Positions 40,882 through 53,870 of a stretch of 53,926 nucleotides of DNA are shown here, one piece after another (the stretch's first letter is position 1; each line of letters begins with the position of its first letter). Source of the DNA: an uncultured Verrucomicrobiota bacterium (lineage in GTDB: Bacteria; Verrucomicrobiota; Verrucomicrobiia; Limisphaerales; J093); contig CAYPUR010000003.1 of assembly GCA_964413865.1 (NCBI GenBank), positions 1-53,926 on the forward strand, given 5' to 3'. The notes beneath the pieces are model-generated. The model did not search any database and was not told the DNA's origin. It saw only the letters and a list, made by a program, of their open reading frames with translations. The translations under genes were made by a program, and so were the position numbers.

Positions 40882-42705
40882 CTACAGGTCGAGGGACTTG
40901 GCTTCCAGGCGGCGGAGTTCGTTTTCCCAGGCCCGGCGCTGCTCCTCGGTCACACCGGGATCGGGCAGAAGGCTGCGTCGAGTGCAATTGACCAGGGCCT
41001 GGAGGGTCTGGTAGCGCCGCGTCTCCTCGATGGCCGGCGGGAGGTTGTCCGCCACGCGTTCGAGCACTTCCTTGAACTTGAGCGTCCGGCCCGATTGGCG
41101 GGTCCGGGCCTTGAGTTCCGAGCGAAGCGAGGCGAACGCGGCAGCGGAGTAACTGCGCGTGACCGTCTCGAGTTCCGCCATTTGCGGCTTGGTCAGGTCG
41201 GCATTGAGCGCCGGTTTCACGGTCCAGCGGAGGAACTCCTCGCGGTCGGGGCCTTCCGGATCGAGAGTGGGGATGATGAGGTCGCCGACGCGTCCGGGCC
41301 GGCGCAGATCGGGCGAGAGGAGGTGGATGCGGGCGGTGACCAGGAGCCAGATGACGCGTCCGCGCAACTGGGGATCGGACATCATGGCCTGGATTTTGCC
41401 GGTGAGGCGCCGTTCGGTCTCGTGGGTGTGGGCGCCGACGCCGCCAAACTGGGTATCGGCCTCATCGATGAAGATGAGCACTTTCGACAGGGCGTTGAGG
41501 ACGCGGCGGAGGCGTTCGAAGATGACGTCGGTCTGGCCGAACCACTGGCTGCGGATGTTCTTGAGCACCAGGACGACGATGTCGAGCTCGGCGGCGACGG
41601 CTTCGAAGATGAAGGTCTTGCCGCCGCCAATCGGGCCGCAGACCGCGGCCCCGGCAAGGGCCTCGGGTCCGGACAGGGCCAGGCGCGGGATCAGTTCCTT
41701 GGCGAGGAACTCCTTGAGGCGGCGGAATCCGACCACATCGGTGAGCCGATGGGACGGTTTCTTGAACTCGACGATGTCCTCGCCCAACTGACTTTGAATG
41801 AAGGACTCGACCTTGGCGACGACGTCGGTCTGGGTCAGGGGGCGTTCTTCATGCGACGCCCCTTTGAGCAACTGCATGACCGCCTGCAGCGAGAGCCCGG
41901 CCGTCCACTGCGCCAGGCCGGCCGCGGAGGTCCCGAGCTTGGCGCGGGCCTGTTCGGGCAGGGCGGCTTCGAACCAGGCGATGAAATGGGCGCGCACAGA
42001 CGCGTCGGGGGCGGGGACCTCGACTTCGAGCAGTTGGGGCAGGCGCGCGATGCGGTGATGGAGCAGGCTGCGCGACTCGGCGATCAGCACCACGGAATCG
42101 CCACCCGTGAGGAAACCCGGATCGCTGAACCAGTCATGACAGATGCCGATGCGCTGGCGGTCGACGTCGGAGAGGCTGGCGATGGGCGCGTCGGGCATCA
42201 GGAGGTCGGCGCCCTCGATGAGGATGAGGAGGTTTTCGGCCAGGAGAGGTTTGCCGCCAAGGACGGTGCGCGAGCAGAGGCAGATCTGGCGCAGGAGTTC
42301 GAGGGCCAGGGTCGGGTTGTTGACGGCGCGTCGCAGCGTGTCGTCGTAGGTCTGAAGGACCAGGTCGAGGTCGGTGGCGGCCTTGCCCTTGGCCAGCATG
42401 CGCTGGACGGCCAGGGCGTTGCTGTCGTAGCCGCTGCGCCAGCGCAGCCAGGCATCGCGGACTTTCTCGGCATCGGCCTCGTGGTGGAATCGGATCGGCC
42501 CGTTCAACTCGTAGGTGATGACGACCAGGCCGGGAAGATCCCACTGGGCCGTGAGGAAGGGAATCAGCGGCACATAGGCGTCTGAACCGTCGGCGGCCGT
42601 GCAGAACAGATCGTAGATGTTGCCGGTGAGAACGACCGACCGGGCCTGCCCGGCATTGAGGATGCGCCCGGCCTGCCGCAGGAAGTCATGAGGGGGGGCG
42701 TTCAT
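40882..42705 (-). CDS. Classic-clade AAA+ ATPase with a long, apparently degenerate AAA-like N-terminal half
   Basis: Walker A is GPIGGGKT and Walker B is VLIFIDEAD. The second region of homology is LSPDLRRPGRVGDLI. The N-terminal half has SVVLTGNIYD and LLILIEGADLL at the equivalent positions. ATG 42705 overlaps the ABC ATPase stop. Confidence 0.8.
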   Translation of the reverse strand: MNAPPHDFLRQAGRILNAGQARSVVLTGNIYDLFCTAADGSDAYVPLIPFLTAQWDLPGLVVITYELNGPIRFHHEADAEKVRDAWLRWRSGYDSNALAVQRMLAKGKAATDLDLVLQTYDDTLRRAVNNPTLALELLRQICLCSRTVLGGKPLLAENLLILIEGADLLMPDAPIASLSDVDRQRIGICHDWFSDPGFLTGGDSVVLIAESRSLLHHRIARLPQLLEVEVPAPDASVRAHFIAWFEAALPEQARAKLGTSAAGLAQWTAGLSLQAVMQLLKGASHEERPLTQTDVVAKVESFIQSQLGEDIVEFKKPSHRLTDVVGFRRLKEFLAKELIPRLALSGPEALAGAAVCGPIGGGKTFIFEAVAAELDIVVLVLKNIRSQWFGQTDVIFERLRRVLNALSKVLIFIDEADTQFGGVGAHTHETERRLTGKIQAMMSDPQLRGRVIWLLVTARIHLLSPDLRRPGRVGDLIIPTLDPEGPDREEFLRWTVKPALNADLTKPQMAELETVTRSYSAAAFASLRSELKARTRQSGRTLKFKEVLERVADNLPPAIEETRRYQTLQALVNCTRRSLLPDPGVTEEQRRAWENELRRLEAKSLDL

Positions 42706-43703
42706 GCGAGCGGATGGGGATGAGGATCGGTTCGAGGCGCGTTGAGTCGGGTTTTCGATTCGCGCCAATAGGCCACATGCTGGTGGCGGTCGCATGGCGG
42801 GTCCGGTTCGAAAACCACGCGGCGGATTTCCTCGCGTTGGGCCGTGAAGCGCTCGAAGTCGCGGGAGGTCTTGCTATCGAAGACGGGGGTCGGTTTGTCA
42901 TAGACAACAGTCGCTCCCGGGGCTTCGGCGTGGCCTTCCTTGCGCCAGTCCCAGCGTTGCGAGAGGCCCACGAGGCGGTCGCCGACGTAGATGGCCTCGT
43001 TCAATTCGTGAGTGACGATGATGAGCGTGTAGGGAGGGCGGTTGCCTTGCCGCACCGCCTTTTGATTCTCCTCGTAGAGGTTCAGCAGCATGTACTGGAG
43101 TTCCTCGCGCGTGGCCTCATCGAGCGCTCCAAAGGGCTCGTCGAGAAGAATGATCTCCGGTTTCATGATCATGGCCTGGGCCAACGCGACCCGCTGGCGC
43201 ATGCCGCCGGACATCTCGTGCGGATAGAGGTCCATCGCGTCTCCGAGCTTCACCTTATCGAGCATCTCACCCGCGGCCCGCCACTGGTCGCGCCGCACGC
43301 GGCGCCAGCGCAGCCGGCGAAGGCACCGGAAGGCGAGGCTTGTCTGATCGAGCATCGGGCCGATGGCCACGTTTTGGCGGGCGGTCAGAAAGGGGAACAG
43401 CGAGTATTGCTGGTAGACAATGCCTCGATCCCGTCCGGGGGCATCGATGACCTTGCCTTCGTGCCCGCTCTCGGCCGAGAAGAGCCGCAGCTCGCCCGCG
43501 CGGGGCGGGTGGGTGCCGACGATGGCGCGCAGGAGGGTGGACTTGCCGCATCCGCTCGGTCCGACCATCGAGAGGAACTGGCCGCGCCGGAGCCGGAGGT
43601 TGACATCGAAGAGAACGGCTTTGGCGCCGAAGCCGTGGCTCACGCCGCGGCATTCGAGGGCGATGTCGCCCGCTGCGGGACTGGCATCACCTTCGGGGTT
43701 CAT
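42702..43703 (-). CDS. ABC transporter ATP-binding protein (NitT/TauT-like)
   Basis: Motifs GPSGCGKSTLL, MSGGMRQRVALAQA and ILLDEPFGALD. Confidence 0.85.
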   Translation of the reverse strand: MNPEGDASPAAGDIALECRGVSHGFGAKAVLFDVNLRLRRGQFLSMVGPSGCGKSTLLRAIVGTHPPRAGELRLFSAESGHEGKVIDAPGRDRGIVYQQYSLFPFLTARQNVAIGPMLDQTSLAFRCLRRLRWRRVRRDQWRAAGEMLDKVKLGDAMDLYPHEMSGGMRQRVALAQAMIMKPEIILLDEPFGALDEATREELQYMLLNLYEENQKAVRQGNRPPYTLIIVTHELNEAIYVGDRLVGLSQRWDWRKEGHAEAPGATVVYDKPTPVFDSKTSRDFERFTAQREEIRRVVFEPDPPCDRHQHVAYWRESKTRLNAPRTDPHPHPLA

Positions 43704-44490
43704 ACCAAGGGCACAGCTTGCGTTGGAGCAGGTGCAACAGCGAGTCCATGCCGAAGCCAAATGCGGCGAGGATGGCGAGGTACGGATAGACGACGCTCAT
43801 GTTGAGGAGCTTGGACTGGAGGCGGATGCGGTAGCCAAAGCCGACATCGCCCACGACCATTTCCGCGGCGATGAGGTAGACCATGGCCGGGCCGATCGAG
43901 AGCCGGACGGCGTCGATGAACCTGGGCAGCACCTGGCGGAAGATGATGGTCCAGACCACCTCCATGTGGGAGGCCCCCAGGGTGTAGGCTTTGTAGAGAA
44001 GTTCGTCCGGGAACTCCTTGACCGCCAGATTCACCGTGAGGGTCATGGTGGGCAGGACGCCGAATGCGATCATCGCCACGTACATGTTGTTGCCGGTCCC
44101 CACCAGGACGAAAAAAACGGCCAGCGCGGCGGTGGGAGGCACCTTCGCAAGCAGGGAGAGCGGCGGGTGCAGAAAACCCTCGATGGGAGTGAAACAGCCC
44201 ATCGCGAGGCCGAGCAGGAGCGACGCCGCCACGCCGCCGCCCAGGCCCAGGAAGAGGCGTTGTCCGCTCGCGACGGCGTCGATCACCAGCCAGCGCTCTC
44301 CGCTGCGCCGGTTGACCTCGATGGCGCTTTGCAGGCCCTTCTGCAATTGGCTCCAGCGCGGAATGGTCGTGTCGTCCGGATTCCGCTGGTACTGCCGGTG
44401 GGCCAGGAAGGTGTAGCCGCCGAGCATGAGCAGGACCGAGAGCGCGCCCAGGAAGGCTGCCGTCGAGGATTTGATGGGGCGACGGATCAT
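43687..44490 (-). CDS. ABC transporter permease (NitT/TauT-like)
   Basis: 267-aa multi-TM protein with ATG at 44490, located between the SBP and ATPase genes. Confidence 0.8.
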   Translation of the reverse strand: MIRRPIKSSTAAFLGALSVLLMLGGYTFLAHRQYQRNPDDTTIPRWSQLQKGLQSAIEVNRRSGERWLVIDAVASGQRLFLGLGGGVAASLLLGLAMGCFTPIEGFLHPPLSLLAKVPPTAALAVFFVLVGTGNNMYVAMIAFGVLPTMTLTVNLAVKEFPDELLYKAYTLGASHMEVVWTIIFRQVLPRFIDAVRLSIGPAMVYLIAAEMVVGDVGFGYRIRLQSKLLNMSVVYPYLAILAAFGFGMDSLLHLLQRKLCPWYEPRR

Positions 44491-44625
44491 GGCGCGCCGT
44501 TTCCGGATGCCGGGCGCGCGGGGCCGATGTCGCTCGCGCCGGCGCTTCTGGTGTCGGTTCGGTTGATCACGCGATTGGCCAGGACCAGATGGACCTCATT
44601 GGCCAGAGACACGGTGCGCACGGCG

Positions 44626-45696
44626 TTACTTCTTCTCGGCCACGGCGCGGATGTAGTCGGGATCGAAGCGCAGGGCCACCGCGCCCGCTTCCGCGCGGCT
44701 GCCGTAGCCGATCTTCGGCGCCGTGGGGACAATCTCCTGTTTCGTGCAGAAATCGACCACGCGTTGGGTGACGGCCTTGAGTTCCGGGCCGGTGAAGAGG
44801 TCGAGAGCGGCCTTGGGCGTGGCATAGAAGCGCGTCTGCTGGACCACCTTTTTCATCGACGCCAGATCGAGGTGGCTGAATTTCTCGCCCAGGGCGATCA
44901 ACGTGTCGTCGCACGTGGCGGGATCGGCGAGGCGCTGATTGACCTGATAGAATGCGTCGACGACCGCGCACGCGAATTCCCTGCCGCCCGGTTTGTCGAG
45001 CGAGGCCTGGGCCATGACAACCGAATCGATGATTTCGTTGGGGATCGAGGTCGAGTCAAAAAGCACATGGACGTCCTTGCGTTTGTTGAGCGTCTCGAGA
45101 ACGAACGGGTTCCAGACGATGATCGCCTCGATCTCCCGCTGTTTTTGCTGGAGGGCGACCGCGGCGGCGCCGGGATCCATGTTGGTGAACTTGTAGTCCT
45201 CGGGGCGTTCGCCAAGGAGTTCGAGGTTGCGGTTGAAGCAGTACTCGGAAACGCTCTTGGCCAGGCCGAAGACCTTCCGGCCCCGCAGTTGCCTGATGTT
45301 CGCGATCGTCTTCGGAACGATCAGGGCATCCGCCCCGGCGCTGGTCGAGGTCGGCACAATCACGACGGACGGGCGTCCCAAGGCCGGATTCAACGCGTCG
45401 AGTGTCGTCATGCACACCGCGTCGCATTGGCCCGCGCCGTACATGGTCAGACACGGATCGTACTCGGCCTCCTTGAGGACAATGTCGACACCCCATTTGT
45501 CCTCGATCGGGCCGGTCTCTCCCTCGCGTCCATCGATGAGTTTGAACACGTGCGCGACGCCGAACGCGCTCCAGGACGGATACTCGCTCCAGGCGAGCGA
45601 GAAGGCGGGCGCGGGCAGGGCGGACGGGGCGCAGATCATGAGCGCCGCGCCAACAAGCCAGGCGGCGGGGGCGAGGGCGAATCGAGTGCTTTTCAT
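44626..45696 (-). CDS. ABC transporter periplasmic substrate-binding protein (NMT1/TauA-like)
   Basis: ATG at 45696 (MKSTRFALAPAAWLVGAALMICAPSALPA signal). It has a type II PBP-like pattern. The upstream part of the track ORF is R/P/S-rich and overlaps PspA. Confidence 0.75.
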   Translation of the reverse strand: MKSTRFALAPAAWLVGAALMICAPSALPAPAFSLAWSEYPSWSAFGVAHVFKLIDGREGETGPIEDKWGVDIVLKEAEYDPCLTMYGAGQCDAVCMTTLDALNPALGRPSVVIVPTSTSAGADALIVPKTIANIRQLRGRKVFGLAKSVSEYCFNRNLELLGERPEDYKFTNMDPGAAAVALQQKQREIEAIIVWNPFVLETLNKRKDVHVLFDSTSIPNEIIDSVVMAQASLDKPGGREFACAVVDAFYQVNQRLADPATCDDTLIALGEKFSHLDLASMKKVVQQTRFYATPKAALDLFTGPELKAVTQRVVDFCTKQEIVPTAPKIGYGSRAEAGAVALRFDPDYIRAVAEKK

Positions 45697-45736
45697 GGGA
45701 ATCGGGGCGGTTCGAGTGGGGGGGTGCATGCGAAGT

Positions 45737-46555
45737 TCATTCGGGCAGTGCCGAGGACTTTTCGGCGGCGGGTGGCGCGGCCTCTTTCTTCTCTTCGATG
45801 CCGAGCAGGGCGTCGAACTCGGTGCTGGCGGTGGTCCGGCGGGCGTAATCGAGGAACTCGGCCTCCTGCGCCTTGACGTCGGTGCCGGCCATCTCCTTCG
45901 AGACGCGGGCCTCGGCCCGGATCTCCTGGCGCATCTGGCGCAAGCGCTGCAGTTCCTCGGCCGAGCCGTCCTTGGCGATGCCGGCGAAGGTGTCGGCCAG
46001 GTCGCGCTCCTGCTTGGCGGTGATGATGTCGGCCACGGCGTCCGAGGCCTCGGCTTTGACCTTCTCGACATCCCGCAGGAGTTGCTGCAACTGAACCTTA
46101 TGCTCGCCGATGGTCTTGCGGTATCCTTCGACGTCGCGCTCGTTCTCAGCGATGCGCTCCTGCTTTTCAGCGAGGGTCGACGAGAAGTCGTTGTAGGCGG
46201 CGAGACATTTCTTGTAGTCCTCGTCGATATGGATCGCCTCCTTGGATTTGCCCGACGCCTGGAGGCGCTCGACAGTCTGCTTGGCCTTGGCGAGCGCGCC
46301 GGCCTTGAGCCGTTCGAGTTGCTGGACATCCTCGCTGAGGCGCTTCACGGTGGCGATCTTGGTCTCCTGCTGTGCGATGAGGCCCGCCACCGCCTGTTTG
46401 TAGATCTGGATCTGGGAGATCTTCTCCCGGACAATCTGGTCGTACTTGGCCCGCACGACATGCGGATTGGCATCGATGACGCGACGGGCGGAGTCCATCT
46501 GCCCGGTCAACAAGTAACCGAGGGCTTTGAACCAGCGGACAAGAGCGCCGAACAT
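45737..46555 (-). CDS. PspA/IM30 (ESCRT-III-like) family protein
   Basis: N-terminal amphipathic helix MFGALVRWFKALGYLL followed by a continuous coiled coil of PspA length and layout. Confidence 0.75.
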   Translation of the reverse strand: MFGALVRWFKALGYLLTGQMDSARRVIDANPHVVRAKYDQIVREKISQIQIYKQAVAGLIAQQETKIATVKRLSEDVQQLERLKAGALAKAKQTVERLQASGKSKEAIHIDEDYKKCLAAYNDFSSTLAEKQERIAENERDVEGYRKTIGEHKVQLQQLLRDVEKVKAEASDAVADIITAKQERDLADTFAGIAKDGSAEELQRLRQMRQEIRAEARVSKEMAGTDVKAQEAEFLDYARRTTASTEFDALLGIEEKKEAAPPAAEKSSALPE

Positions 46556-46559
46556 AGAC

Positions 46560-47339
46560 TTATCCTTTCGTTTCCGAGGTGGGGACCGCCATCGCGTGGC
46601 GGCTGCCGATTGGGGTTTCGTTTAACAGAGAAGCAACCTGTTCTTCAACCGTCTTCGCGACGGCGAGGCTCTGATCGAGCTCTTCGCGCAGCCTGGCCAA
46701 CTCGCGCGACGATCCCTGGCCGGTGCCGAGGTTTTGCACCCCGACGAGCGTGTCGCTCAGTTGTTTCACGGTGGCCTGGATGTCCGCAATCAGCCGCTCA
46801 CGCTGGTCGAGCAGAGGCTGCCGGGCGGCTGTGGAATTCAACTGCCGGGCGGTCTGCCACAGCTTGCCGGTCTGGGCAACGGCCTCGACACCCTGGCGGA
46901 AGACCTCCTGGACCCGCGCCCTGAGGTCGACGATAAGCGGGAGATGGGCGGAACTGGCGGCGGCCTCGGCTTCGTCGAACGCGCGCAACAAAGACCGGAG
47001 ATCCCGCAGCGCGGTCTCGGGCCGGGGATCCTTGTCCGCTTCGGCCAACTGGCGGTCCAGGTCGTCCAGGGCGCGCTGGGCCGCCTGGCCCTCCTCGATC
47101 AGGACTTCATCGGTCACTTGACGCGCCAGGCGCTCGCCGCGAAGCGTCAACTGCGTCACAAACGACCCGGCCGCGATCAGCACGCCGGCCAGGCCGGCGA
47201 ACAGGGCAAAGCCGGCTCTCCAGCCGAAGGACCACGCCGCCGTGAGCGCCGTCATCCCGGCGATGAACGGGCCGATGACCAGCGGATGACCGGCCAGGCG
47301 CAGGACGATGCGGTTTCGGATTTTTTGAGCGTCAGGCAT
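46560..47339 (-). CDS. Two-TM coiled-coil membrane protein
   Basis: ATG at 47339. TM helices are VIGPFIAGMTALTAAWSF and FALFAGLAGVLIAAGSFV, followed by a long helical region. It ends 4 nt before the PspA start. Confidence 0.55.
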   Translation of the reverse strand: MPDAQKIRNRIVLRLAGHPLVIGPFIAGMTALTAAWSFGWRAGFALFAGLAGVLIAAGSFVTQLTLRGERLARQVTDEVLIEEGQAAQRALDDLDRQLAEADKDPRPETALRDLRSLLRAFDEAEAAASSAHLPLIVDLRARVQEVFRQGVEAVAQTGKLWQTARQLNSTAARQPLLDQRERLIADIQATVKQLSDTLVGVQNLGTGQGSSRELARLREELDQSLAVAKTVEEQVASLLNETPIGSRHAMAVPTSETKG

Positions 47340-47485
47340 CCCGAAATTGAACTTGATCAGTGCCAAATATGCATCGGGTTCAAGTCCGTGGACAGTCTTT
47401 TTGCCACGGCGTCGAGCCGTGCCGCGCCCGCGGGGCGCGCCGGCCTGCACCCACGGACAGCAGGTGACGCTGATGTCAGGCTGCA

Positions 47486-49066
47486 TTAGTAGGGCAACTG
47501 GCCAACAACGAAGAGCACGGTCTGACCTTCGCCGCCGGCCACAGTGCTCGGGTCGGCCTGAGTGCGCAGGCGATCGGGATTGATCCCATGGGCGCGCAGG
47601 GCCTGGGCGACGGCCTCGGCTCGGGCCTGGGCGAGCCGCCTGTTGGCCTCGGCGTCGCCCTCGGCTCGAGTCTGTCCAATAATGCGGACATAGAACTCGG
47701 GGAACGATTCGAGCCGGCGGGCGAGGGCCTGCAGATCCCGCTCGCTCGCCTGACTGACGGTCGCGGAGCCGCGCGCGAAAACCACAGGCTCGGCCCGCAG
47801 CTCGCCCACAGGCTGCAACTGGCTCCATTGCTCAGGGCTCAGCGCCCGGATCGCCTGGTCGGACCGCACCTGCTCGTCGGCGGCCGCGCTGGGCCCAAGT
47901 CCGGGGATGACGTCCGCACCTTTGGCTGGATGGAACTGTTCGCGCTGCATGGTGGCGAGGATCTGATCGAAATACAGGGTGCTGTACTTGCCCCCCAGCG
48001 GATCGCTGGCCAGGGCACGGGTCTTGAGCAACACATCCATCACCCGCCCGATGATGTCTTCGAGGGAGTCGACGCCCGATCGGGACGGGGCCTGCGTCAG
48101 GCCGAAGTGCATGTAATTCTCGAGGGTGCTCTTCCACTGAATGCCCTGGACCACCCGCCTGGCCTGGGCCTCATCGAGGCTCTCGGCGCCTGTCTGGCGG
48201 GCATCCTCGCGGACCAGCCGCGGCAGGCCGTCGGGTTCCTGGCTGTACGCATAGGCGGCCCGGCAGTAGGCCTCGACGAAGGCCTTGACCCGGTCGGGTT
48301 GATCGCGCAGGAACTGCCGCTGGGCAACCAGCACATCGACGATGTATCCCTTGAGTTTCGAGCTATCGAGCAGGACGTGCACGCCGGGCTCCGCCAGCGC
48401 CTTGGTCACGTACGGCTCCCAGAGGGCGAAGGCCCTCTTCTCGCCGGGCTTGGCCGCGCGCAACTGGCTGTACACGGCCGGCGGGCCATCCGCCTCGATC
48501 CACCAGCGTTCGGGGAGTTGGGGCAGATTGAAGTGGGCCACGACCACGCGCGCGAGGAATTCGCTGGGCGAGTTGGGCGTGAGCACAATCCGGGCTTCGG
48601 GCGAGTTCAGATCCTGGAGGCTCTGCACCGAGCCGGCGCCCGCCACCAGGGCGTCGCTCCCCTTGGTCTCGTCCAAAACCAGCACGATCGTGCCCGGAAA
48701 ATCCCCGAGACGCGCGCCGGCGACCAGAAGCGAATCGATCGTGAAGGCGGCGAGATGGGCTTTGCCGTCCTGCAGCGCCTTGAGGCGGGCGGAGAAGTCG
48801 CCTCGGTCCTCGCGCACCGTGTAGCGGATCTGGCGCGCCTTGAGCTGCTGCTTGAGCGCTTCCGAGCGCAGGAGGGCATAGCCGCTGAACGCGTCGGCGG
48901 CGACAACCAACTCCTCGCGGTATTGGCTGCTCGATCCGGTGTCGCCGTGCAGTTTCTCCCGCAGGTACGGGTGCACCAGGTATCGGTATGCCACGCCCAA
49001 GACGGCGAGAATCAGACACCATACCACCGCGGCAATCAGACATCCCCTGGCGCGCTTTTCGCTCAT
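47486..49066 (-). CDS. TM-anchored substrate-binding-domain / OmpA-like C-terminal fusion protein
   Basis: N-terminal TM helix, a PBP-like middle region, and the C-terminal segment FARGSATVS ... RIIGQTRAEGDAEANRRLAQARAEAVAQAL (OmpA-like). ATG 49066 is 2 nt after the VWA stop; TTG 49072 is the alternative. Confidence 0.7.
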   Translation of the reverse strand: MSEKRARGCLIAAVVWCLILAVLGVAYRYLVHPYLREKLHGDTGSSSQYREELVVAADAFSGYALLRSEALKQQLKARQIRYTVREDRGDFSARLKALQDGKAHLAAFTIDSLLVAGARLGDFPGTIVLVLDETKGSDALVAGAGSVQSLQDLNSPEARIVLTPNSPSEFLARVVVAHFNLPQLPERWWIEADGPPAVYSQLRAAKPGEKRAFALWEPYVTKALAEPGVHVLLDSSKLKGYIVDVLVAQRQFLRDQPDRVKAFVEAYCRAAYAYSQEPDGLPRLVREDARQTGAESLDEAQARRVVQGIQWKSTLENYMHFGLTQAPSRSGVDSLEDIIGRVMDVLLKTRALASDPLGGKYSTLYFDQILATMQREQFHPAKGADVIPGLGPSAAADEQVRSDQAIRALSPEQWSQLQPVGELRAEPVVFARGSATVSQASERDLQALARRLESFPEFYVRIIGQTRAEGDAEANRRLAQARAEAVAQALRAHGINPDRLRTQADPSTVAGGEGQTVLFVVGQLPY

Positions 49067-49068
49067 GG

Positions 49069-50046
49069 TCAACGGCCCTTGAACAGACGGCGGATAACGA
49101 CGAAAACGAACGCGGCCACGAAAGCGAGAATGATCAGCCAGGATGGGCCGTCAGAATGGCCCCCACGAGGCGGCCGGCTCGGCCCGGGCGGCGCAGCCGG
49201 CGCGGGGGCAGCGGGTGGCGCCGGCGCGCTTGCGGCCGGCTGAAGGTCCTCGGCGGGCCGCGTGGACTCCGGTTGCGCGGTTTGGCGCGGTTTTTCCCCG
49301 ATCGGATGGTTCCCGGAAGCCGAGAGGGCCTGCAAGGCCGCGGCGGCCACCTCGGGCGGCAGGGACGCCAACTCGACGAAGGCGTCGGCCTGGGCGGTGT
49401 CGGTGCGCGGCCGGCTCACCTCGGCCAGGACTTCCGCCACCGCCCGTTCGAGCGAAGCGGCGTCGTTGGCGCGGCGATAGGAGTGGGCTCTGCGGGCCAG
49501 GGTGTGGTCCTGCCGCATCGCCACACCGATCACATCCATCGTGATGCCGCGCGCGAGCACCTCCGGCGCATACCGGTCCACCAGGTTCTGGTCCTGCGCC
49601 TCGCCGTCGGTGACGACGAGGAGACGGTAGGTGCCGTACCCGAACTGCGCGGCCCGCTCCTGCAAGAGGCGGTCTGCTCCTTGCTTGATATGGCGCCCCA
49701 GCGGCGTGTTCCCGTACGGCTCGAGCCGGTCAATGGCGGACGTCAACTCGTCGTCGTTGCGCGGCCCCAGCCGGTAGACCCACGGATCCCGGACGTCGCG
49801 GGCGCTGAAGACGAGCAGACCGATGTGTGTGGTGGGTGGGATCTGGCGCAAGACGGTCTTGAGCGCCGTCTTGGCCGCGGCCATCTTGCTCCCGTCTCCC
49901 CCCGGCATTCGGTCCTTCATCGATCCGGACGCATCCAGGACAATGACCACGCTGTCGTGGGAGTCCTGAGCGCAGAGACGCGCCGTGCCCGGGCTCAAGG
50001 CGGCGAGGACCAGGATCGACAACCAACCCCAGGGCGTTTGGCTCAT
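49069..50046 (-). CDS. Secreted VWA-domain protein with a Pro/Ala linker and C-terminal TM anchor
   Basis: Signal peptide, MIDAS motif VVIVLDASGSM, and C-terminal helix WLIILAFVAAFVFVVI. Confidence 0.8.
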   Translation of the reverse strand: MSQTPWGWLSILVLAALSPGTARLCAQDSHDSVVIVLDASGSMKDRMPGGDGSKMAAAKTALKTVLRQIPPTTHIGLLVFSARDVRDPWVYRLGPRNDDELTSAIDRLEPYGNTPLGRHIKQGADRLLQERAAQFGYGTYRLLVVTDGEAQDQNLVDRYAPEVLARGITMDVIGVAMRQDHTLARRAHSYRRANDAASLERAVAEVLAEVSRPRTDTAQADAFVELASLPPEVAAAALQALSASGNHPIGEKPRQTAQPESTRPAEDLQPAASAPAPPAAPAPAAPPGPSRPPRGGHSDGPSWLIILAFVAAFVFVVIRRLFKGR

Positions 50047-50096
50047 AGAAAACTCCGGTGTGAATGCGGACTGGTTCTTGTCTGAGGCGCGCCTCC

Positions 50097-51944
50097 CTAG
50101 AAGTCGAAGTCCGACTGCGTGGTGGCCTCGGCGGCGACGCGGACGATGCGGAACTCGACCCGCATGTTCTTCTTGGCCTCGTCCATGTTCGAGGGCTTGG
50201 CGACGAACGGCTCGCGGATGCCGACGCCAACGGGCTGGATCTGCGTCTTGTCAATCGTGAGGCCCTTGCTCTTGGCGTACTCGACAATCGAGTCGAGCAC
50301 CGCCTCGGCCCGACTGCGGGACAGGTTCAAGGCCGCCTGCATGGTTTCACGCGGATTGCTGTCGGGCACGCCGTCGAAGGCGCCGCTCTCGATGAGCCGC
50401 GTCAGCTCGGCGGTGCTGCCCAGATCGAGCGCTTTCCCGTTGAGGGAATAGGAGTAGTTGCCCTGGCTGCCGACCCGCTTGAGCACGCCCCGCGCCAGGC
50501 CCGCTTTCACCAGGTCCAGCAGCGTCTTGGTCGGGTCGGCATGGCCGCGAACCGCCACGACTGCATTGCCGAAACGCGCCGCCGTTTCGACGACCCGCTG
50601 GAACTCGGCGCCGTACTGCACGGCACTGAACTCCGTCTGGTTCGGCTCGAAGTTGATCGTGAAGGAGAGGATCGTGCGTTCGTCCAGGGCGCCCCCGGCG
50701 CTCAGTTGCTCGATCTCGCTTCGCACCGCCTCGGCGCGGAACCGCTCGCCGCGCTCGATCTGCGTCTTGCTCAGGTAGCTCAGGAACAACGGCGACTTGT
50801 AATCGAGCCCCGAGGGGAAGAGCCCCATGCGCTCGCGCGCATAGCCCCGGCTGACCGCCAGGTCGAGAGCTGACTTCTGGAAGGCCTCGAATCCGGTGAG
50901 GTTGCCTTGCTCGAGGAAGAACGCCACGTTGCCGGGATAGCCGACGAACGTGCAGTCCGCCACCAATCCGTGGGCGTCATCGAGCACGGGAATGGTCTTC
51001 TGCCCGTAGATGTTCTGCGTGATCTGGAGCAGGGCCTTGTAGGGCGCGGATCCGGAGGTCTCGTACTGCTTCTTCAGATCGAGAACCTCCTCGCATGCCT
51101 TGAGATAGCCGGCGACAAACTTGCTGACCAGTTCCTTGTTCGCGTCGTAAAAGTCCTTCCGACACACATAGACGTCCGCGATCGAGCGCGAAAGCTGGGC
51201 GGTCGAGACCAGCACACGCGCCCCCTTCACCGTCGTTTCCGCGCCGGTGCCCACGCTTGTGAGGCCCCCGCAGAGGCCCACCATGTCGGGGGTGATCGCG
51301 AAACAGGCGTCAATGTCGTTGCGCTTGCGAAACAGCTCGGGCGGCGAGTCCGGCGAGGCGGACAGGTCCTTGGCCCAAATCACCCGGATATCGTTCCAGG
51401 TCAGTTGGGCAGATTTCAGGACGTCGTCGAGCATGCCGACGTGCGGGCCGCACTGCTGGAGGGCGACGGTCTTGCCTTTCAAGTCGCCGAGGGTCCGCAA
51501 CGCCTCGCGCGCCACCAGGTGATCCCCGGCGGACCACGTCATCTGGAGAATGACCACGCCCTTGGTGCGGGGATCGGAGCCGATGACTTCCGACGCCAAT
51601 CCCACCATGTGAAACGTCCCGCGCAGAAACGGTGTCTTGCCCGCCCGATAGTCCCGCACCTGCTGGACGAAATCGTCCGCCGGGGCCAGGCGCAGGTTGA
51701 GCCCCTGCTTCTGAAAGATCGTGCCGGGCTGCGTCGTGAGCCCTCCGTTGGCGTGGAATGTGGCAACGTCGCCTCCCCAGGTAATCACGGGAACCTGCAG
51801 CGGGGCCGTTTGAGTCACCGCACCCACGGGTCCCGGCCCGACAAGATCGGCGAAGCGTGTTTCCTGGGCCGCCAGCGGCCAGAGAGCCATAATCATGGCG
51901 ACGGCCGAGATGCGGAAGAAGTGAGGCCAGCATTGCGTTTTCAT
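50097..51944 (-). CDS. Secreted substrate-binding-domain / OmpA-like C-terminal fusion protein
   Basis: ATG at 51944 (MKTQCWPHFFRISAVAMIMALWPLAA). It has a PBP-like N-terminal region. The C-terminus is AVRGHADPT ... LNLSRSRAEAVLDSI ... NMRVEFRIV. The track's extra 224 aa upstream overlap the opposite-strand lipoprotein gene. Confidence 0.7.
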   Translation of the reverse strand: MKTQCWPHFFRISAVAMIMALWPLAAQETRFADLVGPGPVGAVTQTAPLQVPVITWGGDVATFHANGGLTTQPGTIFQKQGLNLRLAPADDFVQQVRDYRAGKTPFLRGTFHMVGLASEVIGSDPRTKGVVILQMTWSAGDHLVAREALRTLGDLKGKTVALQQCGPHVGMLDDVLKSAQLTWNDIRVIWAKDLSASPDSPPELFRKRNDIDACFAITPDMVGLCGGLTSVGTGAETTVKGARVLVSTAQLSRSIADVYVCRKDFYDANKELVSKFVAGYLKACEEVLDLKKQYETSGSAPYKALLQITQNIYGQKTIPVLDDAHGLVADCTFVGYPGNVAFFLEQGNLTGFEAFQKSALDLAVSRGYARERMGLFPSGLDYKSPLFLSYLSKTQIERGERFRAEAVRSEIEQLSAGGALDERTILSFTINFEPNQTEFSAVQYGAEFQRVVETAARFGNAVVAVRGHADPTKTLLDLVKAGLARGVLKRVGSQGNYSYSLNGKALDLGSTAELTRLIESGAFDGVPDSNPRETMQAALNLSRSRAEAVLDSIVEYAKSKGLTIDKTQIQPVGVGIREPFVAKPSNMDEAKKNMRVEFRIVRVAAEATTQSDFDF

Positions 51945-52217
51945 GACAATCCTTTTGCGTTCGCGTCCTGTATCTCTCATCGCCGCGCACGGTTCCGTCA
52001 GCCGCGCGCGAAACATCCGTCTCTTCGACCACAAGCCTCCCCCCTCACGGGCCGGAAGCGCGGCGCCACAACTTTGAGCGGATGAAATCGGGAGAGTGGT
52101 AACCGGTTTCAACCGCGGGGGCGAGTATAGTTCGTGAGGGGCTTTATAACGCCGGGCCGCGGGTCCGCAAATGCAAAAGGCTTGACGGTCCGGCCCGATG
52201 TGATTGCATTCTGGCAC

Positions 52218-52604
52218 ATGAAGACGAACCTTTCGGCCCTGATCGCCGGTTTGTGCCTGATCGCCCTGACGGTCGGTTGTTATCACTCGGTGGACGGCCG
52301 CACACGGGCCGGCAAGCCGTTTGTGAAAGACCGGATCGAGAGCCGCTACGAGCGCCCGCTTGACCAGATCTTCGAAGCGGCCCGGGAGGTGCTGGCATTC
52401 AACGGCACCCTCACCGGCGAGAACAGGATCTCGAACAGCCTCGAAGCCAGAGTCGACAACAACAAGGTCTGGGTGAAGCTCGACGAAGTCGAACCCAACA
52501 TCTGCCGCGTCATGGTCCAGGCGCGCAAGAGCGGTGGAGGCGGCAATGTCGCCCTGGCCAGCGAGATCGACAAGCAGATCGCCCTGCAGCTCCAGGCACG
52601 GTAG
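52218..52604 (+). CDS. Small lipoprotein (DUF3568-like)
   Basis: ATG at 52218, lipobox LTVGC, 128 aa. The ending VMVQARKSGGGGNVALASEIDKQI resembles DUF3568 as I recall it. Confidence 0.6.
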   Translation: MKTNLSALIAGLCLIALTVGCYHSVDGRTRAGKPFVKDRIESRYERPLDQIFEAAREVLAFNGTLTGENRISNSLEARVDNNKVWVKLDEVEPNICRVMVQARKSGGGGNVALASEIDKQIALQLQAR

Positions 52605-52625
52605 AGGCGCGGGCATTGGTTCTCG

Positions 52626-53870
52626 TCACGCCGACGGGGGTGGAGTCTGCCGCGGGGGCGGGCCTCCCATCTTCAGCCCCAGCCGTTTTTCATACGAGCC
52701 GAGCGCAACCGCTCGGCTCTCTTTCTTTGCACGCAGTTCGAGGCCGATCGTGGCCATCCGCCGCCGCGCCGCCTCCGCCGCCGCGCTCTCGGGTGAGCGC
52801 TCGATGATCCGCTCGAGCGTCTGCCGGGCCAGGGCGACATCGCCCCCTTCACGGGCCTGCAACTCCGCCAGCAGGTTGAGCCAGCGGGTGACCTGCGCCT
52901 CCGGCGCGCACGGCTGGGCGACCAACTGTTCGAGTTGCTCGGCGGCCAAATCGAGCCGCCCGAAATCGCACGCATAGACCACCGCCAGCTCCTCGCGCGC
53001 CTGGCTATCGAGCGGGAATCGCTCCAACTGCCGCACCAGGACCTCCGCCCGCCCGGCCGGATCGGGCGCCGGCGGTTTGAGTCCCTCGAAGTCCGGGCGC
53101 AACCCGAGGCGCTCCTCATGCCGGGTGAGTCTCAGCGGTTTGCGCTCGGCGGTGCCGGCCAGGAACTCCGCCGAGGCCAGGTGCGCCAGCCGCTGGTGCG
53201 CATGGTAGGCCTCCGGAGAGTCGGGAAAAAGACCGACAATCCGCTGGAACGTCTCACGGGCCGCAACCGGATCTTTCAGATACTTGAGCTGCCAGTCCGC
53301 CAGCCGCGTGAAGGCATAGGCCACGTTCTTAGAGGCATGCACCGGCTGGCTGGCAATCCGCTCGATGGTCTCCGTCGCAGCCGGGAGGTCATGGAGATTG
53401 TCCGCCTGGATTTCGGCCAGCATCATCAGGCCGCGGAAATGCGTCGGGAACACTTCGAGTTGTTTCTCGAGCTCCGCCACCGCCTCGATGTACCGTCCGG
53501 TCTTCTGGCGCGCCTCGGCGATCGAAAAGAACGGCTCCGGATCGGGCGGCACATCGCCGCCGTCATAGAGCTGGCCGAATTTGCGCCCGACCGACCCCGC
53601 AAGATGCGGGGCCCAGATAATGGCCAGGATGAGACCGCCCACGGCGGCCATCGGGATCCCGACGAAGGCCGCGCCGTAATCGAAGCGTCCCACAATCGGC
53701 CCGACCACCAGCCCCAAGAACAGAAGGTCGGCCAGCGTCAGCAGCCAGCGCTTGAGGAGGCCGGGGCGGTCGTCGCTCTTCTTCCACCAGGCGGTCAGCA
53801 GCCAGACCGCCAGGGCCGCCCCGCCCAGCGCCCCCACGATCCGCCCTGCGATGGCCCAGAAATCAGTCAT
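52626..53870 (-). CDS. Membrane-anchored TPR-like repeat protein
   Basis: ATG at 53870. Three or four N-terminal TM helices are followed by helical-repeat segments (e.g. GRYIEAVAELEKQLEVFPTH). Confidence 0.65.
   Translation of the reverse strand: MTDFWAIAGRIVGALGGAALAVWLLTAWWKKSDDRPGLLKRWLLTLADLLFLGLVVGPIVGRFDYGAAFVGIPMAAVGGLILAIIWAPHLAGSVGRKFGQLYDGGDVPPDPEPFFSIAEARQKTGRYIEAVAELEKQLEVFPTHFRGLMMLAEIQADNLHDLPAATETIERIASQPVHASKNVAYAFTRLADWQLKYLKDPVAARETFQRIVGLFPDSPEAYHAHQRLAHLASAEFLAGTAERKPLRLTRHEERLGLRPDFEGLKPPAPDPAGRAEVLVRQLERFPLDSQAREELAVVYACDFGRLDLAAEQLEQLVAQPCAPEAQVTRWLNLLAELQAREGGDVALARQTLERIIERSPESAAAEAARRRMATIGLELRAKKESRAVALGSYEKRLGLKMGGPPPRQTPPPSA

What the first reader, a model, noticed from the sequence alone, without database searches (positions are those of the whole stretch)
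40882..51944. Nine-gene, ~11-kb operon coupling PspA/IM30, AAA+ ATPase, VWA, OmpA-anchored binding proteins and an ABC importer
All nine genes are on the minus strand with short gaps or overlaps: 50 nt; 2 nt (or a TTGA overlap); 146 nt; 4 nt; 40 nt; 135 nt; a 17-nt overlap; and an ATGA overlap. The transcription order starts with a secreted SBP-OmpA fusion, a VWA protein (MIDAS DASGSM, TM-anchored), a TM-anchored SBP-OmpA fusion and a 2-TM coiled-coil protein. It continues with PspA/IM30, then NMT1-like SBP, permease and ATPase, and ends with a classic AAA+ ATPase. Three paralogous binding-protein domains, two peptidoglycan-anchoring OmpA domains, a membrane-remodelling PspA and an unfoldase-type ATPase in one transcription unit do not correspond to any characterised system I know. 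The layout suggests an envelope-spanning sensing, repair or transport machine.
Basis: partly seen in the sequence, partly recalled or inferred. Interest (0 to 1): 0.7.

Follow-up and report, generated by a model that had tools for sequence, protein, structure and literature searches.

The report
Conserved PspA–AAA+ envelope gene cassette
This is a real nine-gene cassette, conserved in order across many bacterial phyla, that pairs a PspA/Vipp1-like (ESCRT-III-type) membrane protein with its own Cdc48-like ATPase and cell-wall-anchored transporter parts; a shorter version was predicted in 2024, but none has been tested experimentally.

Summary

Three refinements:
- The PspA call falls below Pfam's cut-off. 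It is backed by 30 of 44 orthologs and by an AlphaFold model whose best PDB matches are Vipp1.
- The AAA+ protein has a degenerate N-terminal AAA domain in front of an active one.
- The 2-TM protein belongs to a family with no Pfam model.

The order G1-G9 recurs in 57 complete loci from Verrucomicrobiota, Acidobacteriota, Desulfobacterota, Sumerlaeia, CSSED10-310 and other lineages, and no other neighbour is conserved. The PspA-like gene and the AAA+ gene also occur alone as a dyad. PspA's C-terminal EFDxLxGL…LPE tail is invariant in both layouts.

Best explanation: the core is an ESCRT-III-like polymer turned over by a dedicated unfoldase. In the cassette it is recruited to a peptidoglycan-tethered ABC importer complex.

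Ravi et al. 2024 (mSystems) already described a six-gene relative computationally. They did not mention the VWA gene or the three binding proteins. I found no experimental work. A single transcript is unproven, because the cassette splits after G4 or G6 in some genomes.

Verdict: new variant of a predicted kind; interest 0.6.

The parts
50097..51944 (-). G1: secreted binding protein. Signal peptide, NMT1/SsuA-like type-II SBP domain (about aa 50-390), and a divergent OmpA/MotB-like C-terminal domain with a ~60-aa insertion. Ends in DFDF-COOH, conserved in >=90% of orthologs.
   Evidence: Pfam NMT1 29.6 bits and OmpA 18 bits. NMT1 in 27/27 and OmpA in 22/27 orthologs. PADLOC ZorB/MotB E 1.7e-4 on aa 530-606. 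Conservation. N-terminal signal-like segment.
49069..50046 (-). G2: periplasmic VWA protein. Signal peptide, VWA domain with an intact MIDAS (DASGSM at 49918-49935), Pro/Ala-rich linker, and a C-terminal TM anchor (49081-49137) with a basic tail.
   Evidence: Pfam VWA 53 bits. MIDAS residues >=90% conserved across 49 sequences. Hydropathy.
47486..49066 (-). G3: inner-membrane-anchored binding protein. N-terminal TM (48989-49045), NMT1/SsuA-like SBP domain, and an OmpA-like peptidoglycan-binding domain (47555-47791).
   Evidence: Pfam OmpA 53 bits and NMT1 19.8 bits. YiaD/Pal-like matches. hhalign against the G6 family gives prob 95.8%, E 6.6e-9.
46560..47339 (-). G4: TM hairpin (47229-47285 and 47157-47213) plus a cytoplasmic all-helical domain carrying a conserved LDxLxxxLxxxDxDPRxExxLRDLR motif. 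The family has no Pfam model. Probable membrane anchor for G5; it always sits directly upstream of G5 in cassette loci.
   Evidence: AF2 model pLDDT 75.6. No significant fold, Pfam or PDB match. The family has 823 representatives of 50%-identity clusters. Position relative to G5.
45737..46555 (-). G5: divergent PspA/Vipp1 (IM30)-like protein of the ESCRT-III superfamily. Conserved N-terminal helix (46499-46555), long helical hairpin, and a predicted low-confidence (likely disordered) tail with EFDxLxGL (45797-45820) and terminal LPE (45740-45748).
   Evidence: Pfam PspA_IM30 E 0.0075. It is the commonest Pfam match, in 30/44 orthologs, best E 3.6e-5. AF2 model has Vipp1 6zvr/8qbw/7o3x as top Foldseek hits, E 8.6e-4, about 250 columns. 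Both termini are invariant in cassette and dyad loci.
44626..45696 (-). G6: stand-alone periplasmic SBP with a signal peptide, of the NMT1/SsuA/TauA superfamily. Distant relative of TIGR03427.
   Evidence: TIGR03427 E 9e-44, full length but below cut-off. TauA 6ssy E 1.8e-4.
43687..44490 (-). G7: ABC importer permease of the TauC/SsuC/NtrB type.
   Evidence: Pfam BPD_transp_1 63.5 bits. TauC and SaoP similarity.
42702..43703 (-). G8: ABC transporter ATPase (NtrCD/TauB-like) with a ~80-aa C-terminal extension.
   Evidence: Pfam ABC_tran 109 bits. TIGR01184 165 bits.
40882..42705 (-). G9: two-domain classic-clade AAA+ protein.
- D1 is degenerate (41806-42705): VVLTGNIYD replaces Walker A.
- D2 is active (40885-41805): Walker A GPIGGGKT 41614-41637, pore loop WFG 41536-41544, Walker B IFIDEAD 41455-41475, SRH/Arg fingers 41281-41316.
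- There is no room for an MIT or Cdc48-N domain.
   Evidence: Pfam AAA 55.9 bits. Best PDB matches are VAT at 84 bits and Cdc48/p97; Vps4B scores only 38 bits. hhalign of the N-half against the C-half gives E 0.001 over 174 columns and aligns LLILIEGAD with Walker B. Motif conservation is also, and coordinates are.
47340..47485 (-). 146-nt G3|G4 spacer: a possible sub-operon boundary.
   Evidence: L030 and L047 carry G4-G9 without G1-G3. L127/L128 break one junction further on, after G4. No promoter or terminator consensus was found.
44491..44625 (-). 135-nt G6|G7 spacer: a possible sub-operon boundary and the preferred site for insertions.
   Evidence: G1-G6 is followed by unrelated genes in L011, L018, L024, L035, L111, L114 and L136. 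Toxin-antitoxin-like genes and a sulfatase gene are inserted here in L020, L031, L040 and L066. An extra ~130-147-aa ORF sits here in 9 loci.

Best explanation
The cassette is a bacterial ESCRT-III-like membrane-remodelling or repair module joined to a peptidoglycan-tethered ABC importer complex.

Core (G5 + G9):
- G5 is a PspA/Vipp1-type protein that binds the cytoplasmic face of the inner membrane through its conserved N-terminal helix and polymerises there (inferred from the family).
- G9 is a two-domain Cdc48-like AAA+ protein, inferred from family behaviour to form a hexamer. It has a degenerate D1 and an active D2 with a pore loop.
- G9 is inferred to engage G5's invariant, predicted-disordered C-terminal tail (EFDxLxGL…LPE) and thread subunits out of the polymer. 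This would give ATP-driven turnover, analogous to Vps4 acting on ESCRT-III.

Nine-gene version:
- G4, a TM hairpin with a helical cytoplasmic domain encoded 4 nt upstream of G5, is inferred to recruit G5 to a specific site.
- That site would be marked by a type-I ABC importer (G6-G8).
- The site would also be marked by three periplasmic proteins that fix it to the cell wall: G1 (soluble SBP-OmpA), G3 (membrane-anchored SBP-OmpA) and G2 (membrane-anchored VWA with a live MIDAS).
- The solute is unknown. The nearest transporter families handle sulfonate, taurine, nitrate or urea-type substrates.

Shown: gene content, domain identities, topology, conservation and the separability of the dyad.
Inferred: polymerisation, tail recognition, recruitment by G4, and what the periplasmic module senses or imports.
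For: Gene models, spacings and domain calls:
-.

G5 is PspA/Vipp1-like:
- Pfam PspA_IM30 covers nearly the full length at E 0.0075.
- It is the top family in 30/44 orthologs.
- The AF2 hairpin model matches Vipp1 structures first.

G9 is a classic-clade, translocating AAA+:
- It has Walker A, Walker B, SRH and an aromatic pore loop.
- Its closest structures are VAT and Cdc48.
- It has a degenerate D1.

G5 and G9 are the only genes shared by the cassette and the dyad-only loci. G5's N-terminus and C-terminal LPE tail are invariant in both layouts. The tail therefore tracks the one constant partner.

Cassette conservation:
- Order G1-G9 is complete in 36 + 21 loci across several phyla.
- Boundaries are exactly G1 and G9.
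- G1-type proteins are found almost only in this context (72 of 80 G1-seeded loci).

Other points:
- G4 always abuts G5 in cassette loci.
- G2's MIDAS residues are >=90% conserved.
- G3's OmpA domain scores above the Pfam cut-off.
- Ravi et al. 2024 independently proposed ATP-dependent membrane remodelling for this PspA/AAA+ pairing.
Against: - No experiment exists for any member.
- G5 scores below Pfam's PspA cut-off. A profile search of PDB sequences found no PspA or Vipp1. Foldseek TM-scores are low (0.3-0.4), as is usual for long hairpins in different conformations.
- G9 lacks an MIT domain, and the G5 tail does not match known MIM consensus motifs. Docking is therefore pure inference.
- G4 shows no detectable relation to Snf7, PspA, PspB/C or LiaI.
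- The cassette is split in some genomes. Physical coupling of the ABC and periplasmic module to the PspA/AAA+ core is therefore not obligatory.
- Nothing here identifies the solute or an inducing stress.
Confidence: 0.5

Rival explanations
1. Several independent systems happen to be kept side by side. These would be an ordinary solute ABC importer with extra binding proteins (G1, G3, G6-G8), a VWA protein, and a separate PspA/AAA+ stress module. They would share genomic proximity or regulation but form no physical machine.
For: The PspA/AAA+ dyad functions alone in many genomes. The cassette splits after G4 or G6 in at least nine loci and tolerates insertions at G5|G6 and G6|G7. The window has gaps of 146 and 135 nt at G3|G4 and G6|G7.
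Against: Identical order is kept in 57 complete loci from distant phyla with unrelated flanks. G1 is almost never found outside the cassette. G4-G5 and G8-G9 junctions suggest translational coupling (4-nt gap; ATGA overlap). Cross-phylum conservation is unusually high for binding proteins (G1 62-70% identity).
Confidence: 0.17
2. A true ESCRT-like budding or scission machine. The PspA-like polymer and AAA+ would drive inner-membrane vesiculation or neck scission. The wall-anchored binding proteins and the VWA protein would select the cargo or the site.
For: An ESCRT-III-superfamily protein is paired with a classic AAA+. Archaeal ESCRT loci also carry an SBP (ProX), which Makarova et al. 2024 interpret as cargo binding. 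The periplasmic parts are strongly conserved.
Against: No ESCRT-I/II, wH or adaptin-like genes are present. Characterised PspA/Vipp1 proteins act in membrane maintenance and repair (reviews). There is no evidence of vesicles in these uncultured lineages. The dyad exists without any cargo module.
Confidence: 0.1
3. Membrane-protein extraction or quality control. G9 would act like Msp1, Cdc48 or FtsH to pull tail- or hairpin-anchored proteins (for example G2 or G4) out of the inner membrane. The PspA-like protein would seal or stabilise the bilayer.
For: G9's closest relatives are unfoldases of the Cdc48/VAT/FtsH/PAN group. G2 is tail-anchored and G4 is a hairpin protein with cytoplasmic termini.
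Against: In dyad-only loci the sole conserved partner is G5 itself. G5's invariant terminal motif argues that G5 is the client. No protease gene is linked.
Confidence: 0.1
4. A MoxR/VWA-type chaperone system, like RavA-ViaA or BatA-E, in which the AAA+ protein works directly on the VWA protein.
For: An AAA+ gene and a MIDAS-bearing VWA gene co-occur in one cluster.
Against: G9 is a classic-clade AAA+ and does not hit the MoxR models AAA_3 or AAA_5. The VWA domain is predicted to be periplasmic and the ATPase cytoplasmic. The AAA+ protein occurs without any VWA in dyad loci and in L030/L047.
Confidence: 0.03

Closest known systems
Predicted bacterial PspA/TM-'Snf7'/inactive-AAA+AAA operons with ABC ATPase, permease and PBPB-OmpA (Ravi et al., mSystems 2024, PMC11237479; example OGG56892.1, Ca. 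Handelsmanbacteria)
   Same: The component classes match: PspA-like protein, two-domain AAA+ with an inactive N-terminal copy, ABC ATPase, permease, SBP fused to OmpA, and a TM-anchored helical protein. The functional idea also matches: ATP-dependent membrane remodelling linked to transport.
   Different: - The published example has six genes in another order: PspA, PBPB-OmpA, permease, ATPase, TM-Snf7, AAA-AAA.
- This cassette has nine genes. It adds a periplasmic VWA protein, a second SBP-OmpA and a stand-alone SBP.
- VWA is not mentioned in the paper or its supplement.
- I could not confirm Snf7 homology for the TM protein.
- I could not fetch OGG56892.1 to compare directly.
Archaeal and eukaryotic ESCRT-III + Vps4 (CdvB/CdvC; Snf7/Vps4)
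   Same: An ESCRT-III-superfamily polymer-forming protein is encoded next to a classic-clade AAA+ with a substrate pore loop. The polymer subunit has a conserved motif at its predicted-disordered C-terminus.
   Different: - G5 belongs to the PspA/Vipp1 branch, not the Snf7 branch.
- G9 has no MIT domain and has two AAA domains (D1 degenerate).
- G9 is closer to VAT/Cdc48 (84 bits) than to Vps4 (38 bits).
- The tail motif is not a known MIM.
- There are no ESCRT-I/II components.
Classical Psp, Lia and Vipp1 systems (E. coli PspF-ABC, B. subtilis LiaIH, cyanobacterial Vipp1/IM30)
   Same: A PspA/IM30-family effector has an N-terminal membrane-binding helix. A small membrane protein encoded next to it could act as an anchor, as PspB/C or LiaI do.
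   Different: - No PspB, PspC, LiaI or Toastrack domain is present.
- The linked AAA+ is not the sigma54 activator PspF: there is no Sigma54_activat hit.
- G5 is larger (272 aa, with longer hairpin helices) and scores below Pfam's cut-off.
NitT/TauT-family ABC importers (SsuABC, TauABC, NrtABCD; TIGR03427 urea-carboxylase-linked SBP)
   Same: G6-G8 have the standard parts: SBP, BPD_transp_1 permease and ATPase.
   Different: All equivalog scores fall below cut-off, so the substrate is unknown. Two further paralogous SBP domains are fused to OmpA-like wall anchors, which is not a feature of the characterised importers.
OmpA/MotB/Pal-type peptidoglycan anchors and MoxR-VWA/Bat systems
   Same: G3, and probably G1, carry OmpA-like domains with the N-x2-L-x3-RA-x2-V helix. 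G2 carries a MIDAS VWA domain on a membrane anchor, as BatA/B do.
   Different: There is no MotA, TolQ or ExbB partner and no MoxR-type ATPase. The VWA domain is predicted to face the periplasm.

Membership tests
PspA/IM30 (Pfam PF04012), ESCRT-III superfamily: G5 | Scores above the curated Pfam gathering threshold | tested here: not met
   16.3 bits against a cut-off of 33.9. Even so, it is the commonest Pfam match among orthologs (30/44, best E 3.6e-5).
PspA/IM30 (Pfam PF04012), ESCRT-III superfamily: G5 | ESCRT-III-type fold: long alpha1/alpha2-3 hairpin followed by alpha4 and alpha5 | tested here: met
   The AF2 model has helices 31-100, 112-196, 200-241 and 246-250, with hairpin pLDDT 85-95. 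Top Foldseek PDB hits are Vipp1 6zvr, 8qbw, 7o3x, 9eom and 7o3w, E 8.6e-4 to 5e-3, about 250 aligned columns.
PspA/IM30 (Pfam PF04012), ESCRT-III superfamily: G5 | N-terminal helix alpha0 used for membrane binding | tested here: inconclusive
   A strongly conserved N-terminal segment MFxAxxRWxKAxGYLLTGQ is predicted helical at residues 3-16, but at low pLDDT. Membrane binding itself cannot be tested here.
PspA/IM30 (Pfam PF04012), ESCRT-III superfamily: G5 | Self-assembly into rings, rods or carpets on membranes | not testable with these tools
   Needs purified protein and EM.
ESCRT-III + Vps4 system | ESCRT-III-superfamily gene linked to a classic-clade AAA+ gene | tested here: met
   G5 and G9 are adjacent in the dyad loci, or lie in the same cassette, in nearly all 160 loci examined. 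G9 has SRH and pore-loop motifs.
ESCRT-III + Vps4 system | Vps4 architecture: N-terminal MIT domain plus a single AAA domain | tested here: not met
   The degenerate AAA D1 begins at about residue 20, so no MIT domain can fit. There are two AAA domains. The Vps4B match is only 38 bits against 84 for VAT. CdvC scores 34.7 bits against a cut-off of 650.
ESCRT-III + Vps4 system | Snf7-family (PF03357) subunit | tested here: not met
   No Snf7 hit was found for G4 or G5, or among 43 + 109 G4 relatives or 44 G5 relatives.
ESCRT-III + Vps4 system | C-terminal MIM motif on the polymer subunit that docks the ATPase | tested here: inconclusive
   An invariant terminal EFDxLxGL…LPE is present in all 81 G5 sequences, cassette and dyad alike. 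It does not match the MIM1/MIM2 consensus, and binding was not tested.
Ravi et al. 2024 PspA/AAA+/ABC/PBPB-OmpA operon class | PspA-like gene with an 'inactive classical AAA + classical AAA' protein | tested here: met
   compared.
Ravi et al. 2024 PspA/AAA+/ABC/PBPB-OmpA operon class | ABC ATPase, permease and an SBP fused to OmpA in the same operon | tested here: met
   G8, G7, G3 and G1.
Ravi et al. 2024 PspA/AAA+/ABC/PBPB-OmpA operon class | Membrane-anchored divergent Snf7 protein | tested here: inconclusive
   G4 is the only candidate (TM hairpin plus helices). Tests for Snf7/PspA similarity were negative:
- hhalign against the G5 family: prob 2-5%.
- Foldseek best hit is IncA at E 0.24; CdvB scores E 1.5.
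- No PDB or Pfam signal.
The reference protein OGG56892.1 could not be retrieved.
E. coli-type Psp regulon (PspF-ABC) | Sigma54-activator AAA+ (PspF) together with PspB/PspC | tested here: not met
   No Sigma54_activat, PspB or PspC hits in any of the nine proteins.
MoxR AAA+ / VWA chaperone pairs | MoxR-type ATPase and a cytoplasmic VWA partner | tested here: not met
   G9 hits only PF00004 (classic AAA). G2 has a signal peptide and a C-terminal TM, which predict a periplasmic VWA domain.
NitT/TauT ABC importers | SBP, BPD_transp_1 permease and ATPase of this family | tested here: met
   All equivalog-level models fall below cut-off, so no substrate can be assigned.
OmpA-like peptidoglycan-binding domain (PF00691) | Domain above threshold, with the N..L..RA..V helix | tested here: met
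   G3 scores 53 bits against a cut-off of 27.2 and has YiaD/Pal structural relatives. G1 is weaker: 18 bits, 22/27 orthologs, and only the RA helix aligns to G3, so its domain is probable but divergent.
Known anti-phage defence systems (PADLOC) | Specific match to a defence-system protein model | tested here: not met
   Only generic domain-level hits: MotB, SMC-like coiled coil, ABC and AAA.

The most novel reading that the evidence does not exclude
Bacteria possess a genuine ATP-driven ESCRT-like machine. A PspA/Vipp1-type polymer would be cycled by a dedicated Cdc48-like AAA+ that recognises its C-terminal tail. In the nine-gene form the machine would be wired across the envelope. Wall-anchored binding proteins and a VWA protein would choose the site or cargo, and the polymer would then bud, cut or reseal the inner membrane there. 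This would contradict recent statements that a Vps4-type partner is absent from bacteria (PMC7619361, PMC10936438).
Probability: 0.15. Interest if true: 0.9.

Novelty: new variant of a known kind. Interest (0 to 1): 0.6.

Why it matters
How bacterial ESCRT-III relatives (PspA, Vipp1) are disassembled and recycled is an open question.

- This cassette and the bare G5-G9 dyad give a concrete, widespread candidate pair that can be tested directly. The pair consists of a very conserved PspA-like protein with an invariant C-terminal tail and a pore-loop AAA+ encoded next to it.
- The nine-gene form adds a defined set of periplasmic, wall-anchored partners.
- If the parts work together, it would be the first case of an ESCRT-III-type polymer physically tied to peptidoglycan and to an ABC transporter.
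- It is common in Verrucomicrobiota and is also found in Acidobacteriota, Desulfobacterota and several candidate phyla. It may therefore matter for envelope physiology in abundant soil, sediment and water bacteria.

Tried and rejected
Searches that found nothing useful:
- **G5 sequence against PDB.** Neither the single sequence nor a profile found PspA or Vipp1. Only structure prediction plus Foldseek and Pfam counts across orthologs gave support.
- **G4 as a TM-anchored Snf7 or PspA.** All tests were negative: hhalign against the G5 family, Pfam on 43 and 109 relatives, PDB profiles and Foldseek. I therefore leave G4 as an unassigned family.
- **Promoters and terminators.** The consensus scan found no promoter, and terminator-like sites were at chance level.
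- **RNA elements.** Rfam and tRNA scans of the whole window found nothing.
- **Other conserved neighbours.** A search for regulators or extra components around cassette and dyad loci found none across phyla.
- **Literature.** Searches for an experimental study, or for a description including VWA, found none. Popp et al. 2022 does not mention this context.

Ideas rejected:
- MoxR-VWA system.
- PspF-type regulation.
- Anti-phage defence system.
- Tol/Mot-type motor.

Not done:
- I ran no further search on G9, because its top hits would only repeat close relatives.
- OGG56892.1 could not be fetched by accession.

Full report
**1. Observation**

The region 40882-51944 holds nine intact minus-strand ORFs:

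| Gene | Coordinates | Length |
|---|---|---|
| G1 | 50097-51944 | 615 aa |
| G2 | 49069-50046 | 325 aa |
| G3 | 47486-49066 | 526 aa (alternative TTG start at 49072) |
| G4 | 46560-47339 | 259 aa |
| G5 | 45737-46555 | 272 aa |
| G6 | 44626-45696 | 356 aa |
| G7 | 43687-44490 | 267 aa |
| G8 | 42702-43703 | 333 aa |
| G9 | 40882-42705 | 607 aa |

The many long ORFs on the opposite strand overlap these genes in a 62-70% G+C sequence. I take them to be non-coding.

**2. Domain identities**

- **G1.** It has an NMT1-type binding-protein domain (29.6 bits; found in 27 of 27 orthologs).
  - Its OmpA-like C-terminal domain is weak and interrupted: 18 bits in the window protein, found in 22 of 27 orthologs, with a PADLOC MotB hit at E 1.7e-4.
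  - Only the N-x2-LS-x2-RA-x2-V helix aligns to G3's OmpA domain.
- **G2.** It has a signal peptide and a VWA domain whose MIDAS residues are >=90% conserved across 49 sequences. A proline-rich linker and a C-terminal TM anchor with a basic tail follow. The VWA domain should therefore face the periplasm.
- **G3.** It has an N-terminal TM segment, an SBP domain and a clear OmpA domain (53 bits; relatives include YiaD and Pal).
- **G6.** It matches no Pfam model, but it aligns end to end with TIGR03427 (E 9e-44, below cut-off) and distantly with TauA.
- **The three SBP domains.** They are anciently diverged paralogs. hhalign gives G3-G6 prob 95.8%, G1-G3 89% and G1-G6 39%.
- **G7 and G8.** They are an ordinary TauC/SsuC-type permease and an NtrCD/TauB-type ATPase.

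**3. The PspA-like protein G5**

The Pfam PspA_IM30 hit is below threshold (16.3 bits against 33.9). PDB sequence searches found nothing, either with the single sequence or with a profile. Three lines of evidence still point to PspA/Vipp1:

- The Pfam alignment spans nearly the whole model.
- PspA_IM30 is the commonest Pfam match among 44 orthologs (30 hits, best E 3.6e-5).
- An AlphaFold model built on 26 homologs predicts a short N-terminal helix, a long hairpin (31-100 and 112-196, pLDDT about 85-95) and further helices. Its best Foldseek matches in the PDB are Vipp1 structures (6zvr E 8.6e-4, then 8qbw, 7o3x, 9eom, 7o3w) over about 250 columns.

I therefore accept G5 as a divergent member of the PspA/Vipp1 branch of the ESCRT-III superfamily.

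**4. The AAA+ protein G9**

- The C-terminal half carries Walker A (GPIGGGKT), an aromatic pore loop (W-F-G), Walker B (IFIDEAD) and the second region of homology with arginines (PDLRRPGRVGD). All are conserved across 60 sequences.
- The closest solved relatives are VAT (84 bits) and Cdc48/p97. Vps4B scores only 38 bits.
- The N-terminal 300 residues align to the C-terminal half (hhalign E 0.001, 174 columns). 'LLILIEGAD' lies over Walker B, and 'VVLTGNIYD' occupies the position where Walker A should be.
- G9 is thus a degenerate D1 followed by an active D2. This D1 starts near residue 20, so there is no MIT or Cdc48-N domain.
- This is the 'inactive classical AAA + classical AAA' protein of Ravi et al. 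2024.

**5. The 2-TM protein G4**

- G4 has cytoplasmic termini, a TM hairpin and a helical cytoplasmic domain with a conserved LDxLxxxLxxxDxDPRxExxLRDLR motif.
- Its family is large: 823 representatives of 50%-identity clusters.
- I found no link to Snf7, PspA or any other family:
  - hhalign against the G5 family gave 2-5% probability.
  - Pfam scans of 43 and 109 relatives found nothing relevant.
  - PDB profile searches were empty.
  - The best Foldseek hit was IncA at E 0.24, with CdvB at E 1.5.
- If G4 corresponds to the 'TM + divergent Snf7' protein of Ravi et al., I could not confirm that homology.

**6. Comparative genomics**

*G5-seeded scan of species-representative genomes.* This returned 80 loci, tallied:

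- 36 carry the complete colinear G1-G9.
- About 18 carry only G5 followed by G9. Ten of these have full flanks, and nothing else is conserved around them.
- 4 carry G1-G6 followed by unrelated genes. One is the complete genome CP170459.
- 2 carry G4-G9 without G1-G3.
- 1 lacks G9.

*G1-seeded scan of metagenome contigs*:

- 21 more are complete cassettes.
- There are splits after G6, and after G4 in one cassette seen on two contigs (L127 and L128).
- There is one deeply divergent full cassette, with G5 at 33% and G9 at 49% identity.

*Further points:*

- Complete cassettes come from MAGs labelled Verrucomicrobiota (the majority), Acidobacteria, Desulfobacterota, Sumerlaeia, CSSED10-310 and others. 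Hydrogenedentota and Omnitrophota contigs carry the cassette as far as they extend.
- Identity to the window is about as high across phyla as within Verrucomicrobiota (for example G1 62-70%, G5 60-70%). This suggests horizontal spread, very strong constraint, or both.
- No other gene is conserved next to the cassette. The TPR protein upstream in the window (52626-53870) is shared only with the closest relatives.
- Insertions occur only at G5|G6 and G6|G7.
- The window itself is about 94% identical in DNA to two Verrucomicrobiota MAGs. Its G+C content is uniform.

**7. A feature that bears on mechanism**

In all 81 G5 sequences the N-terminal MFxAxxRWxKAxGYLLTGQ is strongly conserved. The C-terminal EFDxLxGL, a variable Pro/Ala/Glu/Lys linker and a terminal LPE are invariant. 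This holds in both cassette and dyad loci. G9 is the only partner common to both layouts. An invariant terminal motif on a low-confidence, probably disordered tail is therefore best read as the handle by which G9 engages G5. That is inference, by analogy with MIM-MIT docking in ESCRT-III/Vps4 and with degron tails of other AAA+ clients.

**8. Most likely mechanism**

The core is an ESCRT-III-like polymer (G5) on the cytoplasmic face of the inner membrane, turned over by a dedicated AAA+ unfoldase (G9). In the nine-gene form:

- G4 probably anchors or recruits G5. G4 is encoded 4 nt upstream of G5 and always adjacent to it.
- The permease and ATPase (G7, G8), with their three binding proteins and the VWA protein, form a complex fixed to peptidoglycan through the OmpA-like domains.

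Whether this complex imports a solute, senses envelope state, or simply marks a site where inner membrane and wall are tethered cannot be decided here.

The rivals, each listed with evidence in the Rival explanations section, are:
- Independent systems that merely sit side by side.
- A true budding or scission machine.
- A membrane-protein extraction system.
- A MoxR-VWA-like chaperone.

**9. Comparison with what is known**

- Ravi et al. 2024 (mSystems, PMC11237479) already reported the PspA/two-domain-AAA+ dyad. [quoted passage not shown]
- Their example has six genes in a different order. VWA appears nowhere in the paper or its supplement.
- The 2025 review PMC7619361 still states that a Vps4-like ATPase appears absent in bacteria. 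Makarova et al. 2024 confine ESCRT systems to archaea and eukaryotes, while noting a ProX binding protein in some archaeal ESCRT loci.
- I found no experimental study of this pair.
- The cassette is not a PspF-type Psp regulon, a MoxR-VWA system or a catalogued defence system.

**10. Verdict**

- Novelty: a new, larger variant of a computationally predicted but experimentally untouched kind.
- Interest: 0.6. The cassette offers a direct handle on how bacterial ESCRT-III relatives are recycled, and it shows an unexplained coupling to wall-anchored binding proteins.

Noticed in passing
window 51945-52625: A 681-nt stretch with no gene lies between the TPR gene and G1. It has no Rfam match and no sigma70-like promoter. 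It is about 94% conserved with the closest MAGs, L001 and L002. It could hold the cassette's promoter or leader.
   Followed up: partly
window 52626-53870 (-): A protein with three N-terminal TM segments and TPR repeats (TPR_6, TPR_14, YfiO-like) sits upstream of the cassette on the same strand. It is conserved only in the three closest relatives (L001, L002, L004), so it is not part of the cassette.
   Followed up: yes
window 37100-39273: TatC (37100-38101, + strand) ends where a xylose-isomerase-like TIM-barrel gene on the opposite strand (38098-39273) ends, giving a convergent 4-nt overlap. The short ORFs between 39365 and 40533 have no family match.
   Followed up: no
L007, L017, L019, L022, L023, L025, L026, L032, L034, between G6 and G7 (e.g. 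L017:12054-12452): An extra conserved ORF of about 130-147 aa occupies the G6|G7 spacer in nine Verrucomicrobiota/Limisphaerales loci. It is absent from the window, and its function is unknown.
   Followed up: partly
L020:10850-13100 and 14226-15066; L066:12561-13087; L031:12121-14810; L040:12107-13534: Small toxin-antitoxin-like or HNH-like ORFs, or a sulfatase-like gene on the opposite strand (assigned from its N-terminal motif only, not scanned against Pfam), are inserted inside the cassette. The insertions occur only at the G5|G6 or G6|G7 junctions.
   Followed up: partly
L071, L010, L014: Contigs carrying the bacterial cassette, or part of it, sit in bins labelled Bathyarchaeia archaeon, Bifidobacteriaceae and Bryobacteraceae. 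The first two look like mis-binned contigs, because the genes are 63-73% identical to Verrucomicrobiota versions.
   Followed up: no
L129:2329-13344: A complete cassette in the same order but deeply divergent: G5 33%, G4 30% and G9 49% identity to the window. The architecture is therefore older than the tight cluster of 60-97% relatives suggests.
   Followed up: partly
window 50100-50111 (G1 C-terminus): G1 ends in DFDF-COOH, conserved in >=90% of orthologs across phyla. An acidic terminal motif could be a ligand for the MIDAS site of the neighbouring VWA protein G2. This is speculation and was not tested.
   Followed up: no
L061, L063, L073, L078, upstream of G5: In four Acidobacteriota/Thermoanaerobaculia dyad loci, a conserved protein of about 220-240 aa lies just upstream of the PspA-like gene on the same strand (cluster C6). 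It was not identified.
   Followed up: no
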